From: a virus
Length of the DNA stretch: 64,000 bases
IMG/VR virus record: IMGVR_UViG_3300037190_000626
Span: 1 to 64,000 of that record
Direction: 5' to 3' (one strand)
Positions within the stretch are counted from its first letter, which is position 1, and each line of letters begins with the position of its first letter. Both the position numbers and the translations under genes were made by a program. Positions 4,366 to 31,412 of the stretch are shown here, one piece after another. The notes beneath the pieces were generated by a model. That model searched no databases, was not told where the DNA came from, and was given only the letters and a program-made list of their open reading frames with translations.

Positions 4366-6232
4366 CGTTTTTCATAAGATCCACGAGAACATCCGGATGG
4401 GTGAAGGTTGCGTGGTTGTTGAGACTGAAGAGTCACAAGACGTGATTGAAGAAATTCGTGGTGGCGTGTATGCCACCAACAAGGCCGCACAAGAACCTAA
4501 GGAACAAGTCTTTGTGGCTTTCCATGATGCGGTCCGTGGTCTTCAGGATATCGACGGAGATATTTTGAGTGCTGTGGCAGCTAACGAATCTAATGCTGAT
4601 GAACTTGCTGCTTTAGGGATGACGGCAGATGAGCCAGAAGCATGCAGTGCGTTTGACGCTATCAAGATGTTTTTGGACATTGCTGATGAACGTAAACGTG
4701 CCGCAGAAAATGGAGACGATAGCGCGAGTCATGATATCAAACAGGTTCTCGTGTTGAGAAACTTTGATCGGGAGTTGATGCCGCAGGGAAACCAGAACAT
4801 CAATGCTCGGCTTCTCATGGCAGTGCAACATCTCATCACCGTGGGTCGTATGACTGACGTGATGTTGGTTCTCTTGGTGAGCACAGGTGCAGAGTTGCCT
4901 GCTGAAATACGCGAGCACGTTGCTGGTGTCTTCCATGACCTTCCCGATAACGACGAGCGTCATGCTATCATCGAAGATCTGGCTGATGCTTGCGGTCTTG
5001 AGAAGGACGAAGACGCGGCTGTAAGGACCGTTGCGGCTACTAGTGGGCTGAGCCGGGCTTGGACCGAAAGAAGCGTTAGCGAGGCTCTGAGTCGCTACAA
5101 GGGTCTGGATACAGGCGCTATCTGGCGTATGAAAGCAGAGTATCTAGGAAAACAGGGGCTTTTGCAGCTCTGGACCCCGGAGTTCCAAAAAGAGGTAAAA
5201 CTCTGGCCAACACCCGATAGCGGGTTTGAAGGCTTCTCAGATGTGACGATGTTGCGTGAAGAAACGCATCAGCAGAACCGGGAAGTTCCCGCTGATAACA
5301 TCCGTGCCCGTCTTCGCTATTCAGATAGTGAAGTGATCAAGGAGCACTGGCTTGACCCGATGCCTACGGAAGAGTTTGAAGCGAAGTTTCGTCCTGAGCG
5401 TGACTTCTTCAGCTTCAAGTCTGTAATCGGGCTGAACGGTCTGAAGGGTTTCCTCCAGCGTGGTAATCGTGCTGGTATCCCTGACCGTGCCAAGATGAAG
5501 GGCGTTTTACTCGTTGGTGTTCCGGGTACCGGGAAGAGCTTCATCATGAAGTGTGCTGCCGGTGAACTTGGGATGCCGCTATCTGAGATGTCTGCTGCCA
5601 ACTTGTATTCCAAGTGGCTCGGGGAGACTGACAAGAATCTCCGCAAGATGCTCAGTACAGTTGAATCGATTGGCGGCATTCTCGGTATTGATGAATACCA
5701 GAGGTTCATGCCTACGGGCGGTGACGAGTCCGAAGGACGGACTAGTCAGAGTGTCGCAGGTGGAATGCTGACGTGGCAGAACGATCAGAACAGTGTGCTA
5801 GTGTTAGCCGCTGCTAATGACGTGAGTGCTATTCCGCCGGAATTCACTCGATCTGGTCGATTCGATACCACGTACTTCGTGGGCTTTCCTTCACGTGAGT
5901 CGAAAGACGCGGCGTGGGAGATGTATATCTCTCGCCACGAGCTGGATGAGCAGAAGCTTCCCGAAGATGACTATTGGGTACCGGCGGACATCGAAGTGTG
6001 CTGCAAAATGAGTGAGCAGCAGGGAATCTCCCTGCGTGAAGCAGCGAAATATATCAAGATCTCCTACTCAGGTACCGGGAAGGCTGTCTTGGATAAGTTA
6101 ATGGATTGGGCCGAAGATGCGGGCTGTATTGATGCTGAGACGAATGAACTCTTTGTTCATCCGAGGAAGCAGAAAAGCTCTGCCTCTGGTAGCCAAGCAC
6201 CGAAACGTACAGTTAGGAGTGTGAACAAATGA
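4358..6232 (+). CDS. AAA+ ATPase (Ycf46-like)
   Basis: Walker A GVPGTGKS, SKWLGETDKN, Walker B LGIDE, SRH PPEFTRSGRFD; start moved to ATG 4358 behind an AAGGAG SD. Confidence 0.85.
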   Translation: MSSVFHKIHENIRMGEGCVVVETEESQDVIEEIRGGVYATNKAAQEPKEQVFVAFHDAVRGLQDIDGDILSAVAANESNADELAALGMTADEPEACSAFDAIKMFLDIADERKRAAENGDDSASHDIKQVLVLRNFDRELMPQGNQNINARLLMAVQHLITVGRMTDVMLVLLVSTGAELPAEIREHVAGVFHDLPDNDERHAIIEDLADACGLEKDEDAAVRTVAATSGLSRAWTERSVSEALSRYKGLDTGAIWRMKAEYLGKQGLLQLWTPEFQKEVKLWPTPDSGFEGFSDVTMLREETHQQNREVPADNIRARLRYSDSEVIKEHWLDPMPTEEFEAKFRPERDFFSFKSVIGLNGLKGFLQRGNRAGIPDRAKMKGVLLVGVPGTGKSFIMKCAAGELGMPLSEMSAANLYSKWLGETDKNLRKMLSTVESIGGILGIDEYQRFMPTGGDESEGRTSQSVAGGMLTWQNDQNSVLVLAAANDVSAIPPEFTRSGRFDTTYFVGFPSRESKDAAWEMYISRHELDEQKLPEDDYWVPADIEVCCKMSEQQGISLREAAKYIKISYSGTGKAVLDKLMDWAEDAGCIDAETNELFVHPRKQKSSASGSQAPKRTVRSVNK

Positions 6233-27863: not shown

Positions 27864-27895
27864 AAGCCTAGGGTGTGTTGCCCTAGGCTTTTTTT
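27864..27895 (+). terminator. intrinsic terminator
   Basis: AAGCCTAGGG-tgtgttg-CCCTAGGCTT perfect 10-bp stem plus T-run. Confidence 0.8.
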
Positions 27896-27924: not shown

Positions 27925-28689
27925 ATGGCTACAGTTACGAAGACTAGCGCAAAGAAGCCTGCGGCTAACGACCCTTTCGCTAAGACGCGAATTGAGATTC
28001 CCGAAGTGAACATGGATATCTTCAAGTGTCGCCTTATTGGCGAGACCCCGTTGGTTATTCATGCGATGGGTGAAAAGAAGCGTAAGGAAATGCGCGATTT
28101 GATGGGCCCCAAGACGGCGGCCTCTAAGGTGCGACCCCCAAAGGATCAGGCGGGTGAGTACTTTGACGCAATGTATATTTTGAACAATCAGATGGACAAG
28201 GACGGTAAACGCCCTAACCCACATCACAACGATCAGGAATACAGCTACGAAGGTATCTTCGTTCCGCTGGCCTTTGAAGACGCTACTGCGGTTCATGGTG
28301 TGCGTGCTTCCGGGTTCCGGCTCGGTATGGTTCGTGCCGCTAAGAGCTGCGGTGCTGTGATGACGGACACTCGCTGTAACATGCGAGTTAGAAGTCCGTT
28401 TGGCTCGTTCGTCCCGTTGAGCTTTGAGACGGTTGTCTCCCGGGAAGACCCCGTGAAGTTGCAGGGCAACAAGACTGACCTGCGTTACCGCCCTGAGTAC
28501 ACGGGCTGGTCAGTTGACATCGAGATTGAGCACATGTCGGACATCATCGGACCAGAGCAGCTGATTCAGTTGCTGCGTATTTCTGGTCGTACGGTTGGTG
28601 TCGGCGAATGGCGTAATGAACGTGGCGGCGAGTTCGGCGCGTTCGATGTGGATCTGGACAGCGTCGAGCTGGAAAAGAAAACTCTGTAA
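27925..28689 (+). CDS. stand-alone Cas7/RAMP-fold RNA-binding protein, putative effector of the adjacent pentamer-repeat arrays (Vipr-like)
   Basis: N-terminal strand CRLIGETPLVIH, central RYRPEY.GWSVDIEIE, C-terminal Gly-rich loop SGRTVGVGEWRNERGGEFGAFDV typical of RAMPs; start at MATVTK behind AAGGA. Confidence 0.75.
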   Translation: MATVTKTSAKKPAANDPFAKTRIEIPEVNMDIFKCRLIGETPLVIHAMGEKKRKEMRDLMGPKTAASKVRPPKDQAGEYFDAMYILNNQMDKDGKRPNPHHNDQEYSYEGIFVPLAFEDATAVHGVRASGFRLGMVRAAKSCGAVMTDTRCNMRVRSPFGSFVPLSFETVVSREDPVKLQGNKTDLRYRPEYTGWSVDIEIEHMSDIIGPEQLIQLLRISGRTVGVGEWRNERGGEFGAFDVDLDSVELEKKTL

Positions 28690-28871
28690 GTAAAGGGGTA
28701 AACTATGGAACAACAAGATCACTGGCAAGACAGTATACGCATCTTGTTCGCTTGCCCTTGGCATAAAAAGATGAGGGCGTGCCAATTGCTCTGCTTGCTT
28801 TTTGTAGTGGAGTGTCGGCTTGGTTTTTATGCTTGGAGCAGAAAACTATAACTCACGTTGAAAATGGTTGT

Positions 28872-28927
28872 CCGGGGGCAGTGGTGTACTAAGTCTTAGA
28901 CTAAGTCCGAAGCTGCCCCCGGTTTTT
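28872..28927 (+). terminator. GC-rich stem-loop with T-tail (terminator or structured RNA element)
   Basis: CCGGGGGCAG (28872-28881) pairs with CTGCCCCCGG (28913-28922), followed by TTTTT. Confidence 0.55.
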
Positions 28928-28947
28928 ATCTAGAAAGAAGGTAAATT

Positions 28948-29490
28948 ATGAGTAGTGGTTACGATGTAACTGTTGAATTTAGTGCCAAGCCGACTCGTCC
29001 TCTTAGCAATAAGGTGGCTGAAGAGGTTGGTCCTGAGATTCACGCATTGATGCAGAAGAACGAGGGGGACGAGCTTACCCCGCATGAGTACTTGGATTGG
29101 GTTAAGGCAAACCCAAACAGTAAGAGTTACAGTCAGTTTGAGTGGGAAGATACAATTGCTGCGAGAAAGTGGCGAGTTCATCAAGCTCGAAATATCATCA
29201 ATTCGATTGATATTAAGGTGATTGACGAACGCGGCGACGCGGTGAGCGTTCCTGCGTTCATTCATATTACGAGGGCAGACTCGGGTGAGGATGCTCGTCA
29301 GTTGTATACTTCTTACGAAAACGTTCTGAACGACGAGGAAAGCTCTTCACAGGTGGTAGCGAGAGCTTGCCGTGATTTCCTGTCGTGGCGTCGTCGTTAC
29401 CTGCTGCTCCGGGGTAAGCTGCCACTGGCAGACATTTACGATGCGACGGACGTTCTGGCTCAAGAGCTGGAAGCACCGGAAGAAGATTAA
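28948..29490 (+). CDS. conserved partner protein between the RAMP gene and the array
   Basis: LTP..Y...K.NP.S..Y..FEW.D..AA..WR..QAR..I.SI motif of a widespread phage hypothetical family; directly upstream of array 1. Confidence 0.7.
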   Translation: MSSGYDVTVEFSAKPTRPLSNKVAEEVGPEIHALMQKNEGDELTPHEYLDWVKANPNSKSYSQFEWEDTIAARKWRVHQARNIINSIDIKVIDERGDAVSVPAFIHITRADSGEDARQLYTSYENVLNDEESSSQVVARACRDFLSWRRRYLLLRGKLPLADIYDATDVLAQELEAPEED

Positions 29491-29568
29491 TTTGGGAGCG
29501 AATAGTTAGTTTGGAAATCTCGTCAAACAGCGTCGTGGGGACGTAACGCTATTCGTGTGACATGGCAT

Positions 29569-30312
29569 GGCAGTCATGGCGAGGTGTGACATGGTGAGCT
29601 GGGGCTTGTTAAGGTCTGGCGGGGTTAGGTCAGGTAAGGCAGTCTTGGCAGGGTAAGGTGTGTTAAGGCACTGCGAGGTGGGCCACGGTTAGGCGAGGAA
29701 TGGCAGTCATGGTTAGGTTTAGCGAGGCGGGGAGAGGTGCGGCAGGGTGCGGCTGGGCAGTCATGGCATGGTGCGGTCGGTACCGGCGGGGTCAGGAGGG
29801 GTAAGGCTCGGAATGGCAGTCAAGGTGAGGTTAGGCATGGTCTGGAACGTTATGCGCTGGTTTGGAGTGGTAAGGCAGTCGTGGCGGGGTGGGGCCGGTC
29901 TGGGATAGGTCCGGTTGGGTGAGGCAGTCGAGGCGGGGTCTGGTAAGTTGCGTTAAGGCGGGGAAAGGTGGGGTGGGTTACGGCAGTCAAGGCTAGGTGT
30001 GGTGTAGTGTGTCGAGGCGGCGAAAGGTCGGGCAGGGCAGTCATGGTGAGGCGGGGTGTTGCTGGGTGTGTCTGGTTCGGGGCTGGCGAGGCAGTCATGG
30101 CAGGGGGTGGTGGGTAGCGGCGGGGTCAGGAGGGGCAAGGCAGTCATGGTGAGGTGTGACACGATGAGGTGTGACATGGTTCGGCAGTCGAGGTCGGGTC
30201 TGGTTCGATCTGGCAAGCCGAGGCGTGGTGCGTTGAGGCAGGCATGGAATGGGTGGCACGGCGCGGTCAGACCACGGTGAGTAATGGCAAGGCTAGGCAG
30301 CCATGGCGCGGA
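29569..30312 (+). repeat. array 1: 13 units of GGCAGTC-NN-(GGY-NN)7-12, putative guide-RNA array
   Basis: Heads at 29569, 29638, 29702, 29756, 29815, 29874, 29923, 29982, 30036, 30090, 30139, 30183, 30237 (GGCAGGC), 30296 (GGCAGCC); unit lengths 69, 64, 54, 59, 59, 49, 59, 54, 54, 49, 44, 54, 59, all 9+5n. Confidence 0.92.
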
Positions 30313-30326
30313 TATTAACTTTACCC

Positions 30327-30698
30327 CTACTTTTCGCAGCTGCTGCAACGAGCACTCCATCTTGATCTCATCTGAGAGCGAACCGGACGTTCTTGTGCCA
30401 TAACACGTAGGGCCCGAAACGGCATAGTTGTAACTCTTACTGTGGTTCTCACAGTGGCTCTAACAAGCGTTCGAACTGGTTGTGCGTCACGGAGCCTCTT
30501 TGCGGCATTACGTAAGGGAGATCGGCAACTGCGGCCCTCTGCTGCGACGACAGGTTGCTTATCGGCTTCTTGCATACTGACAGCACTAACGTATGACACA
30601 GTTGACGCTTTGGATGCGTGATCACAATCTTGTGCGTTAACAGAGCTGAAAGAGAGAACACTTACGACAACGGCTGAAGCTAAACACTTTTTAAACAT
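30327..30698 (-). CDS. small secreted, Arg-rich protein lying between the two arrays
   Basis: Signal-peptide-like MFKKCLASAVVVSVLSFSSVNA; AGGA SD on the minus strand; PVRTLVRATVRTTVR low-complexity tail. Confidence 0.6.
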   Translation of the reverse strand: MFKKCLASAVVVSVLSFSSVNAQDCDHASKASTVSYVSAVSMQEADKQPVVAAEGRSCRSPLRNAAKRLRDAQPVRTLVRATVRTTVRVTTMPFRALRVMAQERPVRSQMRSRWSARCSSCEK

Positions 30699-30831
30699 GT
30701 CTTTTCCTGTTATTTAAGTGGTAATACGTAATGCTCCTACAAGGGAGCGACAAAATTGTAAATCTTTAATTGCGACACGGCATCCCCAAACCAGAGGTAT
30801 TTTTAAAAATACTCCAAAAAAGAAGTGACGA

Positions 30832-31017
30832 GGCAGTCATGGTTAGGTGCGTACTGGTGAGGTGGGTTCAGGTCAGGCAGGGTGTGGTATGGCAGTCAAG
30901 GCGAGGTATGGTCGGGTGAGACATGGTCGGGCTGGGCGAGGCGAGGAATGGCAGTCAGGGCAAGGTCTGGTTGGGTTTGATTCGGAGGGGCGAGGAGTGG
31001 CAGTCGTGGTGCGGTTG
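30832..31017 (+). repeat. array 2: 3 full units plus a partial unit of GGCAGTC-NN-(GGY-NN)n
   Basis: Heads at 30832, 30891, 30950, 30999; lengths 59, 59, 49; same 5-nt phase as array 1. Confidence 0.9.
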
Positions 31018-31021
31018 CTAG

Positions 31022-31387
31022 ACTTAAGCTTTTGACTTAAGCTTGTGAGTCCTTACGTTAAGTAATATATAAAACAAGGAGGAGTGATGAGACCTGAGTC
31101 ATTTAGGTCAAAACCATTTATTGATTGTTCTAAGTGGGAATGTTGGAATTGCGGTGCAATTCACCATTACATACCTGCTGATTGTCAAAAATGTCGGGTG
31201 AAATTTGTCTCCCGACCTCACTGGGGTGTTCCCGAGAAAAATTCGGAGATCTCTGAAGAGAAGAAAACATCAATATCTTTTGATGAGTTAATATCTGATT
31301 TACTGAAAGGACCAGAAGAAGAGTAACTGCTTGATGCCCTGTATATATTATCTATAGGACTCACAAGCTTAAGTTAAAAGCTTAAGT
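31022..31387. repeat. 32-bp inverted repeat pair flanking a small ORF
   Basis: ACTTAAGCTTTTGACTTAAGCTTGTGAGTCCT (31022-31053) vs AGGACTCACAAGCTTAAGTTAAAAGCTTAAGT (31356-31387), 31/32 complementary. Confidence 0.85.
31084..31326 (+). CDS. small zinc-ribbon protein
   Basis: WECWNCG...DCQKC; AAGGAGG SD. Confidence 0.55.
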   Translation: MMRPESFRSKPFIDCSKWECWNCGAIHHYIPADCQKCRVKFVSRPHWGVPEKNSEISEEKKTSISFDELISDLLKGPEEE

Positions 31388-31412
31388 AACTCTAAATTCT
31401 GGGATTGACGCT

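What the first reader, a model, noticed from the sequence alone, without database searches (positions are those of the whole stretch)
29569..31017. The NN dinucleotides read as codon positions 1-2: a gapped, wobble-skipping target code
Seen: taking only the NN after each head and GGY gives strings such as aa-ga-ta-at-ct-ac-at-ct-tt-gt-aa, aa-ta-gt-gt-gt-ga-gg-aa-cg-ag and at-ta-gc-ct-ga-gg-ca-ca-ag-gt-at. Treating each as NNx translates them to KDYILTMLFVK, KYVVVEGNRR and IYALDGQHRVM. At least 6 of 16 units give recognisable conserved motifs. Inference: guides recognise DNA as NN-x-NN-x in register with coding frames of conserved motifs, so targeting would be immune to synonymous third-position escape and could hit whole gene families. 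Caveat: many NN are ambiguous between two residues (D/E, N/K, H/Q, I/M, S/R, F/L, C/W) and I chose the best reading.
Basis: partly seen in the sequence, partly recalled or inferred. Interest (0 to 1): 0.96.

Follow-up and report, generated by a model that had tools for sequence, protein, structure and literature searches.

The report
VIPR guide-RNA array in marine phage
The five-base repeats are guide RNAs of a VIPR system, a CRISPR-like phage weapon first described in 2026 that reads two bases and skips one; here one guide spells a conserved stretch of bacterial restriction-enzyme genes and another that of rival phages' helicase genes.

Summary

With the two upstream genes this is a VIPR system (Vipr RAMP protein, accessory gene, vrRNA array). 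The Vipr family profile hits the solved SUSP1 Vipr at E=7e-12. The same three-part module recurs in 23-24 of 41 array loci.

The "NN-x-NN-x, gap on the wobble base" reading is the published VIPR 1-nt skip rule (bioRxiv 10.64898/2026.04.26.720920 and 2026.10.15.759431). It is right but already known.

I verified it for two guides of this locus:
- **Guide 29815:** at least 120 exact metagenome hits, 117 in frame as KDYILTMLFVK near the start of type I R-M hsdM genes.
- **Guide 29756:** 18 of 18 viral-contig hits in frame as (M/I)ARPG(H/Q)GKS, and the 5 ORFs tested are DnaB-like helicases.

The serine-recombinase, DGQHR and ParB readings found no support.

An hsdM-directed guide appears in none of the three preprints' main texts as far as I read or word-searched them. 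The scan met VIPR before in at least 15 other genomes.

The parts
27864..27890 (+). Terminator-like hairpin (12-bp stem followed by a T run) just upstream of vipr. It marks the likely start of a separate vipr-vap-array transcription unit.
   Evidence: consensus scan only; function inferred.
27925..28689 (+). vipr: a 254-aa RAMP (Cas7-like) protein, predicted to polymerise on the pentamer RNA with one protomer per GGY-NN unit.
   Evidence: Family profile against PDB 36pp_D 'SUSP1 Vipr protein', E=7.2e-12; single sequence, E=1.4e-4, aligning R189 to R138 and E228-W229-R230 to D177-W178-R179 (residue roles from paper 2). AF2 model pLDDT 81.6. Foldseek top hits are subunits of type III Csm/Cmr, type VII and Cas7-11 complexes, 54 matches at E<=0.001. 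Homologues sit next to arrays in 24 of 41 loci.
28948..29490 (+). vap-like accessory gene (180 aa), always on the array's strand and adjacent to vipr or the array. Possibly a winged-helix DNA binder.
   Evidence: Homologues in 23 of 41 array loci; alignment A1. phrog_15946, no Pfam family. AF2 pLDDT 89.6. No PDB match at E<=0.001, only weak forkhead/MarR/PadR/RepE-type rows. No PDB sequence hit.
29569..30312 (+). vrRNA array, part 1: 13 heads and 11 cleanly bounded guides of 8-13 GGY-NN units. Unit length is 5k+4, so successive pentamer registers overlap by 1 nt (a 'staggered' array).
   Evidence: legend of fig. S18 of paper 1.
29756..29814 (+). Guide whose NN string reads (I)(M/I)ARPG(H/Q)GKS. 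It targets the Walker A codons of DnaB-like helicase and primase-helicase genes of other phages.
   Evidence: 18 hits in viral contigs with NN2-10, 18 of 18 in the sense frame; NN1 also matches in 16 of 18; the last NN does not match. 5 of 5 ORFs tested are Pfam DnaB_C. 19-20 of 22 bases at skip 1 against 14-16 at skips 0, 2 and 3 in five whole virus records.
29815..29873 (+). Guide whose 11 NN read KDYILTMLFVK. It targets codons about 30-48 of type I restriction-modification hsdM genes, the first gene of hsdM-hsdS(-hsdR) operons.
   Evidence: 5 of 5 ORFs tested are HsdM_N + N6_Mtase and PADLOC MTase_I. Operon context in 3 of 3 loci examined. 8 of 401 genomes against 0 of 401 for the reversed pattern.
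30832..31017 (+). vrRNA array, part 2: 4 heads and 3 bounded guides. It is separated from part 1 by a 520-bp insert that carries a minus-strand ORF.

Best explanation
Window 27925-31017 is a VIPR (Viral Interference Programmable Repeat) locus of an uncultured marine phage. It holds vipr (a RAMP protein), a vap-like accessory gene, and a 'staggered' array of at least 14 vrRNAs.

By homology with the SUSP1 and P. fulva systems, I infer the following for this locus. The array is transcribed with the genes and cut at or near the GGCAG|TC junctions. Vipr protomers then polymerise on each RNA, one per pentamer. They bury G-G-Y and present the two variable bases. The filament binds double-stranded DNA wherever the NN dinucleotides pair with two bases, skip one, pair with two, and so on, and it blocks transcription there.

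Because the skipped base falls on codon position 3, one guide covers all synonymous variants of a conserved peptide. Shown here by sequence: one guide is a perfect 11-of-11 NN match to the KDYILTMLFVK codons at the 5' end of a widespread subfamily of type I R-M hsdM genes. Another matches the Walker A codons of DnaB-like helicases in other phages. The targets of the other guides are unknown.
For: **System identity**
- The Vipr profile hits the solved SUSP1 Vipr at E=7.2e-12.
- The G-loop and thumb residues are conserved (their roles come from paper 2).
- The model has a RAMP fold.
- The vipr, vap-like gene and array co-occur on one strand in 23-24 of 41 loci found only through the head-plus-skeleton pattern.
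- The grammar is 8-13 YNNGG units per guide with variable NN, as in the published vrRNAs of 9-16 repeats.
- The 5k+4 period fits the published 1-nt-overlap 'staggered arrays'.

**The code, on this locus**
- Guide 29815 at skip 1 gives at least 120 exact hits. A 20-base pattern occurs by chance once per about 1.1e12 positions.
- 117 of the 120 are in one frame of one protein family.
- The NN left out of the pattern matches in 115 of those 117.
- In 401 genomes there are 8 hits against 0 for the reversed pattern.
- In 30 HsdM_N loci picked by the Pfam model and not by the pattern, 4 reach at least 16 of 22 bases at skip 1. None does at skips 0, 2 or 3, and 1 does for a shuffled NN order.
- Guide 29756 gives 18 of 18 hits in frame in helicase genes.
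- There is no self-target in the phage's own 78 kb, as reported for published systems.

**The mechanism itself** was shown experimentally in the three preprints.
Against: - There is no expression, processing or binding data for this locus.
- Only 2 of 14 bounded guides have identified targets. Guides 30832, 29982, 30036 and 30090 gave nothing above chance.
- The large collections were scanned only at skip 1. Skips 0, 2 and 3 were compared only on fetched loci, and the comparison is circular.
- The published type II vrRNAs end in a long structured tail, which this array lacks.
- The vap-like protein could not be matched to any published vap, because no sequences were to hand.
- Silencing hsdM after infection cannot remove restriction enzyme already in the cell. 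The benefit to the phage is therefore unclear.
Confidence: 0.88

Rival explanations
1. The locus is a VIPR system, but the hsdM and helicase guides are aimed at rival mobile elements (prophages, islands, plasmids, other phages) that happen to carry these genes. This would be the published inter-element warfare role, not an attack on host defence.
For: The published natural targets are satellites, prophages and other VIPR systems. The helicase targets lie on viral contigs. Type I R-M operons often sit in mobile defence islands; in L179 the hsdM-hsdS pair is followed by a Piwi-domain gene. Silencing hsdM transcription cannot protect the entering genome from enzyme already present (inference).
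Against: The exact hsdM pattern has 0 hits in 2.9 million viral contigs, against at least 120 in metagenome contigs. Some of those contigs are 189-859 kb long and so look chromosomal. In Pseudomonadota genomes the near matches are ordinary hsdM genes.
Confidence: 0.35
2. The NN 'peptides' are pareidolia. The NN positions are unconstrained filler in a structural G-rich repeat, such as a two-tetrad G-quadruplex or R-loop tract, a replication origin, or a protein sponge. This was my own first guess.
For: Period-5 GG tracts with strong G skew. Three of the five motif readings tested found nothing. NN composition only weakly prefers codon positions 1-2: 63 of 153 guides, with a log-likelihood close to that of one other register.
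Against: Two guides give 117 of 120 and 18 of 18 in-frame hits in single protein families, with the unsearched NN also matching. The adjacent gene is a homologue of the solved Vipr protein. The published biochemistry explains the grammar.
Confidence: 0.02
3. The array is an orphan or decaying relic. Its guides once matched targets but are no longer expressed or loaded.
For: Several units have degenerate skeletons: GG is kept in only 57-75% of pentamers in five guides. One head is degenerate. A 520-bp insert with an opposite-strand ORF splits the array. Most guides have no detectable target.
Against: vipr and the vap-like gene are intact, with conserved key residues. The two guides with targets are perfect or near-perfect (22 of 22 and 20 of 22 bases). 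[quoted passage not shown]
Confidence: 0.08

Closest known systems
Type II VIPR system of Escherichia phage SUSP1 and the P. fulva prophage (bioRxiv 10.64898/2026.04.26.720920; structures in 10.64898/2026.04.26.720927; PDB 36pp)
   Same: Both have a Vipr RAMP protein with the same G-loop (D/E-W-R) and thumb arginine, and one small accessory gene. Both have guides made of YNNGG pentamers with variable NN. Targets are read two bases on, one off, with the gap on the wobble base.
   Different: There is no long invariable 3' tail or pseudoknot. Here guides abut through a 9-nt GG-CAGT-C-NN junction, so the unit period is 5k+4. The array holds at least 14 guides, against 4 in SUSP1. The Vipr protein is distant (E=1.4e-4 for the single sequence). 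The targets found are hsdM and DnaB-like helicase genes, not a satellite recombinase or prophage regulators.
'Staggered vrRNA arrays' mentioned in the same preprint (fig. S18; legend only seen)
   Same: Successive vrRNAs derive from positions overlapping by 1 nt, the end of one marking the start of the next. This is what a 5k+4 period implies.
   Different: I could not see the figure or which VIPR type it belongs to, so the identity of the architecture is inferred from the legend alone.
Class 1 CRISPR-Cas backbone (Cas7/Csm3/Cmr4 filaments on crRNA)
   Same: Both use a RAMP fold. One protomer binds per fixed number of guide nucleotides, and a thumb breaks the guide-target duplex periodically.
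   Different: The period is 5 on the guide and 3 on the target, instead of 6 and 6. There are no CRISPR repeats and no spacer-acquisition genes next to the array. The system is phage-borne and the guide is noncontiguous.
Protein anti-restriction factors of phages such as Ocr and ArdA (recalled, from no call)
   Same: If the hsdM guide acts on the host, the outcome would be the same: weakening of type I restriction-modification.
   Different: Those are DNA-mimic proteins that block existing enzyme at once. This would be RNA-guided transcriptional silencing of the operon, which acts only on new synthesis.

Membership tests
VIPR system | A Vipr protein: a minimal RAMP homologous to the characterised Vipr. 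| tested here: met
   Profile against PDB 36pp_D 'SUSP1 Vipr protein', E=7.2e-12; single sequence, E=1.4e-4. The model's best fold matches are Cas7-type subunits of Csm/Cmr, type VII and Cas7-11 complexes.
VIPR system | Residues that grip G1, G2 and Y3 of each repeat (SUSP1 R138, D177, W178, R179). | tested here: met
   These align to R189 and E228-W229-R230. R189 is invariant and R230 nearly invariant in 22 family members. D177 is replaced conservatively by E.
VIPR system | vrRNAs of tandem YNNGG repeats (9-16 published), with conserved GGY and hypervariable NN, beside the vipr gene. | tested here: met
   14 bounded guides of 8-13 units, on the same strand, starting 79 nt after the vap-like gene. 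Related phages L008 and L073 share leader and trailer but differ in NN content and unit number.
VIPR system | Targets obey the 1-nt skip rule, mostly with the skip on the wobble position. | tested here: met
   Met for 2 of the 6 guides searched in large collections. The other 4 gave nothing above chance.
VIPR system | An accessory vap gene (vap1-6) in the locus. | tested here: inconclusive
   A conserved partner gene is present in 23 of 41 loci. Its model gives only weak winged-helix-like rows. No published vap sequence was available to compare.
VIPR system | No self-targeting at 80% NN match or above. | tested here: met
   The best skip-1 match in the phage's own genome is 0.65-0.78 for 13 guides. 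It is 13 of 16 for the 8-unit guide, and skips 2 and 3 reach the same 13 of 16.
VIPR system | vrRNAs are expressed, processed and bound by Vipr, and the RNP represses transcription. | not testable with these tools
   The phage is an uncultured marine metagenome assembly, so this needs bench work.
Type II VIPR (SUSP1 clade) | An RNA of about 100 nt with an invariable structured 3' tail (pseudoknot) after the repeat tract. | tested here: not met
   Units are 44-69 nt and are joined only by GGCAGTC. No Rfam family matches. So the locus is not filed under type II; a staggered-array type is more likely.

The most novel reading that the evidence does not exclude
This phage's VIPR array is a panel of subfamily-wide guides, each written against the most conserved codons of a protein family rather than against one rival genome. 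One of them is aimed at the first gene of host type I restriction-modification operons. That would be RNA-guided anti-restriction, meaning VIPR turned against host defence. This role appears in none of the three preprints' main texts, as far as I read or word-searched them. Their supplementary target tables were not seen.
Probability: 0.3. Interest if true: 0.65.

Novelty: new member of a known kind. Interest (0 to 1): 0.4.

Why it matters
The gapped, wobble-skipping code is no longer a discovery; it was published in April-October 2026. This locus still adds three things:
- It gives an independent, purely computational confirmation of the rule in a distant marine Vipr lineage with the compact 'staggered' array form.
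- It shows how far one 11-unit guide can reach: 107 distinct hsdM sequences that differ freely at the skipped bases.
- It points to a host defence gene (hsdM) and a replication gene (DnaB-like helicase) as natural VIPR targets. This widens the known target range beyond satellites, prophage regulators and other VIPRs. If the hsdM guide works on the host, it would be a new kind of anti-restriction.

Tried and rejected
**Searches that found nothing useful**
- Near and distant DNA searches of the region against 50,697 phage records gave no match. The DNA polymerase is only 23-28% identical to known phage polymerases.
- Tandem Repeats Finder gave 0 rows.
- A relatives search with the 180-aa protein alone in viral contigs confirmed no relative. 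Its relatives were found instead through the array pattern.
- Rfam gave nothing.

**My first reading**
- My first reading was a TRAP-like ring ligand, a G-quadruplex tract or an R-loop origin. I dropped it once the Vipr hit appeared.

**Local target searches**
- 230 guides from all arrays were searched against 1.1 Mb of fetched loci. 18 guides reached 85% at skip 1, against 12 at skip 0 and 11 at skip 2, which is no signal.
- None of 216 guides from other arrays hits the hsdM loci.
- In the hsdM loci, two further window guides had single raised scores (21 of 26 and 19 of 22). These were isolated and not recurrent.
- In five whole helicase-bearing virus records, only guide 29756 matches.

**NN composition against codon registers**
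- The best fit is sense positions 1-2, but only narrowly, so this test is inconclusive.

**Guides without supported targets**
- Guide 30036: 12 exact core hits in genome contigs against about 17 expected. None extends and none is a recombinase. There were 4 near hits against 2 control hits in 151 genomes.
- Guide 30832: 0 hits and then 1 hit in viral contigs. In 401 genomes there were 4 hits against 1 control. The DGQHR-looking hit is an 85-aa ORF that begins at the motif.
- Guide 29982: 2 identical hits with NN1 mismatched.
- Guide 30090: 0 hits.

**Other**
- Sequencing runs: no RNA holder is listed, and the holders are marine, seawater and vent metagenomes.
- Foldseek on the vap-like model gave no match at E<=0.001.
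They may already list hsdM-type targets or this array type.
Full report
**1. The observation**

The region is a real, highly ordered array on the + strand.
- Seventeen heads GGCAG[TC]C lie at 29569-30296 (13 heads) and 30832-30999 (4 heads).
- After each head come pentamers YNNGG. Of the 15 head-to-head distances, 14 are 5k+4 (44-69 nt). The remaining one, 113 nt, is two units with a degenerate head.
- In GGY-NN register, the head is a GG-CAGT-C-NN junction that shifts the register by -1.
- GC skew reaches +0.5.
- Tandem Repeats Finder finds nothing because only three of every five bases are constant.
- I extracted 14 cleanly bounded units with 8-13 NN each.

**2. What it is**

A pattern made of the head and the GG skeleton found 113 stretches in IMG/VR. 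Forty of these loci, plus the window, have at least two 5k+4 spacings, and they show the same grammar.

I clustered all ORFs within 6 kb of these arrays. Exactly two protein families travel with them, always on the array's strand:
- homologues of window 27850/27925-28689, in 24 of 41 loci;
- homologues of window 28948-29490, in 23 of 41 loci (alignments A2 and A1).

Neither family has a Pfam match. A profile of the first family hits one solved structure, 36pp 'SUSP1 Vipr protein', at E=7.2e-12. The window protein alone hits it at E=1.4e-4. Its AlphaFold model (pLDDT 81.6) is most similar to RAMP subunits of type III Csm/Cmr, type VII and Cas7-11 complexes.

**3. The literature**

Three 2026 preprints describe VIPR systems. 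What I saw of each:
- Paper 1 (10.64898/2026.04.26.720920): the outline, the whole Results, methods sections 20 and 26, and passages.
- Paper 2 (10.64898/2026.04.26.720927): the abstract, the first part of Results, and passages.
- Paper 3 (10.64898/2026.10.15.759431): the abstract and passages.

What they show:
- Phages encode a minimal RAMP (Vipr), an accessory gene (vap) and vrRNAs made of 9-16 YNNGG repeats.
- Vipr polymerises on the RNA. It hides GGY and presents NN.
- The complex binds double-stranded DNA in which NN pairs with two bases and the third is skipped.
- The skipped base mostly falls on the codon wobble position, which blocks escape by synonymous mutation.

Paper 1 also mentions 'staggered arrays' whose vrRNAs overlap by 1 nt (legend of fig. 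S18). A 5k+4 period is exactly that, and I take this array to be of that form (inference). The long structured tail of the type II vrRNAs is absent.

The residues that paper 2 shows gripping G1, G2 and Y3 (R138, D177, W178, R179) align with R189 and E228-W229-R230 of the window protein. R189 is invariant and R230 nearly invariant across the family.

**4. Testing the code on this locus**

*Guide 29815*
- NN2-11 (20 specified bases) had 0 hits in viral contigs.
- 117 of the 120 lie in one reading frame of one protein context...ACDTFRGVIDPSQYK-DYILTMLFVK-YLSD....
- The codon before the match begins with AA in 115 of the 117. So the eleventh NN, which was not in the pattern, matches too.
- The codon after is TA, not the AG of the next head, so the constant GGCAG is not part of the specificity.
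- Five of five ORFs tested are HsdM_N + N6_Mtase and PADLOC type I methyltransferases, with the site at residues about 30-48. One is a longer fusion with the site at residue 228.
- In three of three loci examined, hsdM is followed on the same strand by hsdS and/or hsdR. In one locus a Piwi-domain gene follows hsdS.
- Among 107 distinct target sequences, codon positions 1 and 2 in the footprint are fixed. For ten codons this is by construction; for the eleventh it is observed. The skipped positions carry 1.2 bits of entropy on average.

*Controls that do not depend on the pattern-selected loci*
- In 401 genomes of one phylum, the full 11-NN pattern with up to 2 mismatches hits 8 genomes, all reading KD(Y/F)(I/V)LTMLF(L/V/M)K-like. 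The reversed pattern hits none.
- In 30 HsdM_N loci chosen by the Pfam model, 4 reach at least 16 of 22 bases at skip 1, all at the same motif. None does at skips 0, 2 or 3, and 1 does for a shuffled NN order.
- HsdM_N genes occur in 40 of 81 genomes. The guide therefore covers a subfamily, not the whole family.

*Guide 29756*
- NN2-10 (18 bases, about 2 chance hits expected by my estimate) had 18 hits in viral contigs.
- All 18 are in frame as (M/I)ARPG(H/Q)GKS. NN1 also matches in 16 of 18, and the last NN does not match.
- Five of five ORFs tested are DnaB_C helicases, two of them fused to an AEP primase domain.
- In five of these virus records fetched whole, this guide scores 19-20 of 22 at skip 1 and 14-16 at other skips. 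The other 13 guides stay at background.

None of the 14 guides matches the phage's own genome above background.

**5. What did not hold**
- **Serine recombinase (guide 30036):** 12 exact core hits in 596 Gb of genomes, about the chance number. None extends into the flanking NN and none is a recombinase. There were 4 near hits against 2 control hits in 151 genomes, none recombinase-like.
- **DGQHR (guide 30832):** 0 and 1 hits in viral contigs. In 401 genomes there were 4 hits against 1 control. The one DGQHR-looking hit is a short ORF beginning at the motif.
- **ParB-like (guide 29982):** two identical hits with NN1 mismatched.
- **Guide 30090:** nothing.
- **Limits of these tests:** absence from these collections does not show that the guides are idle. 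The host is unknown and the phage is a marine metagenome assembly.
- **NN composition:** across 153 guides it only weakly prefers codon positions 1-2.

**6. How it most likely works**

*Shown here:* the gene family, the array grammar, the co-occurrence of the three parts, and the codon-register matches of two guides.

*Taken from the preprints (shown there for SUSP1 and P. fulva):* filament assembly, GGY sequestration, the two-on, one-off pairing, triplex R-loop formation and transcriptional repression.

*Inferred for this locus:*
- transcription with vipr and the vap-like gene from downstream of the hairpin at 27864-27890;
- cutting at the GGCAG|TC junctions;
- repression of hsdM-led operons and of rival helicase genes.

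The vap-like protein gives a confident model (pLDDT 89.6) but no significant structural match. It gives only weak winged-helix-type rows, which would fit the 'predicted DNA binding' vaps of some published types.

**7. Novelty and open question**

The code and the system are known, and this scan has met VIPR in at least 15 other genomes. This is a new member with the compact staggered array.

The point worth following is the hsdM guide:
- The words restriction-modification, hsdM, methyltransferase and anti-defense do not occur in the main texts of papers 1 and 3.
- In paper 2, 'restriction' occurs only as 'steric restriction'.
- Only these three papers and one passing mention hold the word vrRNA. 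The supplementary target tables were not seen.

It is undecided whether the guide serves anti-restriction or aims at mobile elements that carry R-M systems. Silencing cannot remove enzyme already present when the phage enters.

Noticed in passing
window 30313-30831 (ORF 30327-30698, minus strand): A 520-bp insert splits the vrRNA array. It carries an opposite-strand 123-aa ORF with a signal-peptide-like start (MFKKCLASAVVVSVLSFSSVNA...) and an Arg-rich second half. It has no PHROG or Pfam match, and may be a moron inserted into the array.
   Followed up: partly
window about 31020-31052 and about 31357-31388, flanking ORF 31084-31326: A near-perfect inverted repeat of about 31 nt (containing twice CTTAAGC) brackets an 80-aa ORF with two CxxC pairs (zinc-ribbon-like). 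It sits directly after the array's last unit. It has no family match and may be a small mobile or regulated cassette.
   Followed up: no
L008:3380-4000 and L073:9950-10350: Two related IMG/VR phages share the same 60-nt leader and the same trailer around their arrays. They differ in the number of guides (10 against 5 heads) and in the NN content. Guide sets therefore turn over quickly between close relatives.
   Followed up: no
L179:3868-8963: One exact-match hsdM target is followed by hsdS and then a 763-aa Piwi-domain (prokaryotic Argonaute-like) gene on the same strand. This looks like a defence island.
   Followed up: no
L256:3240-5000 and L263:2872-4626: Two of the helicase targets are fusions of an AEP-TOTE primase domain with DnaB_C. 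The guide's Walker A site is therefore shared by plain helicases and primase-helicases of different phage groups.
   Followed up: no
L001, L010, L058, L093 (IMG/VR): These loci have 3-10 head-like GGCAGTC..GG motifs but mostly irregular spacing, and no vipr or vap homologue within the fetched stretch. They share other genes with each other. They may be orphan arrays or a coding repeat; this was not resolved.
   Followed up: no
L088 (oriented coordinates, guide at 5073 and site at 2094): A 12-unit guide of this contig matches a site on the same contig at 21 of 24 bases at skip 1, close to its own vipr gene. It could be a self or near-self site, or chance.
   Followed up: no
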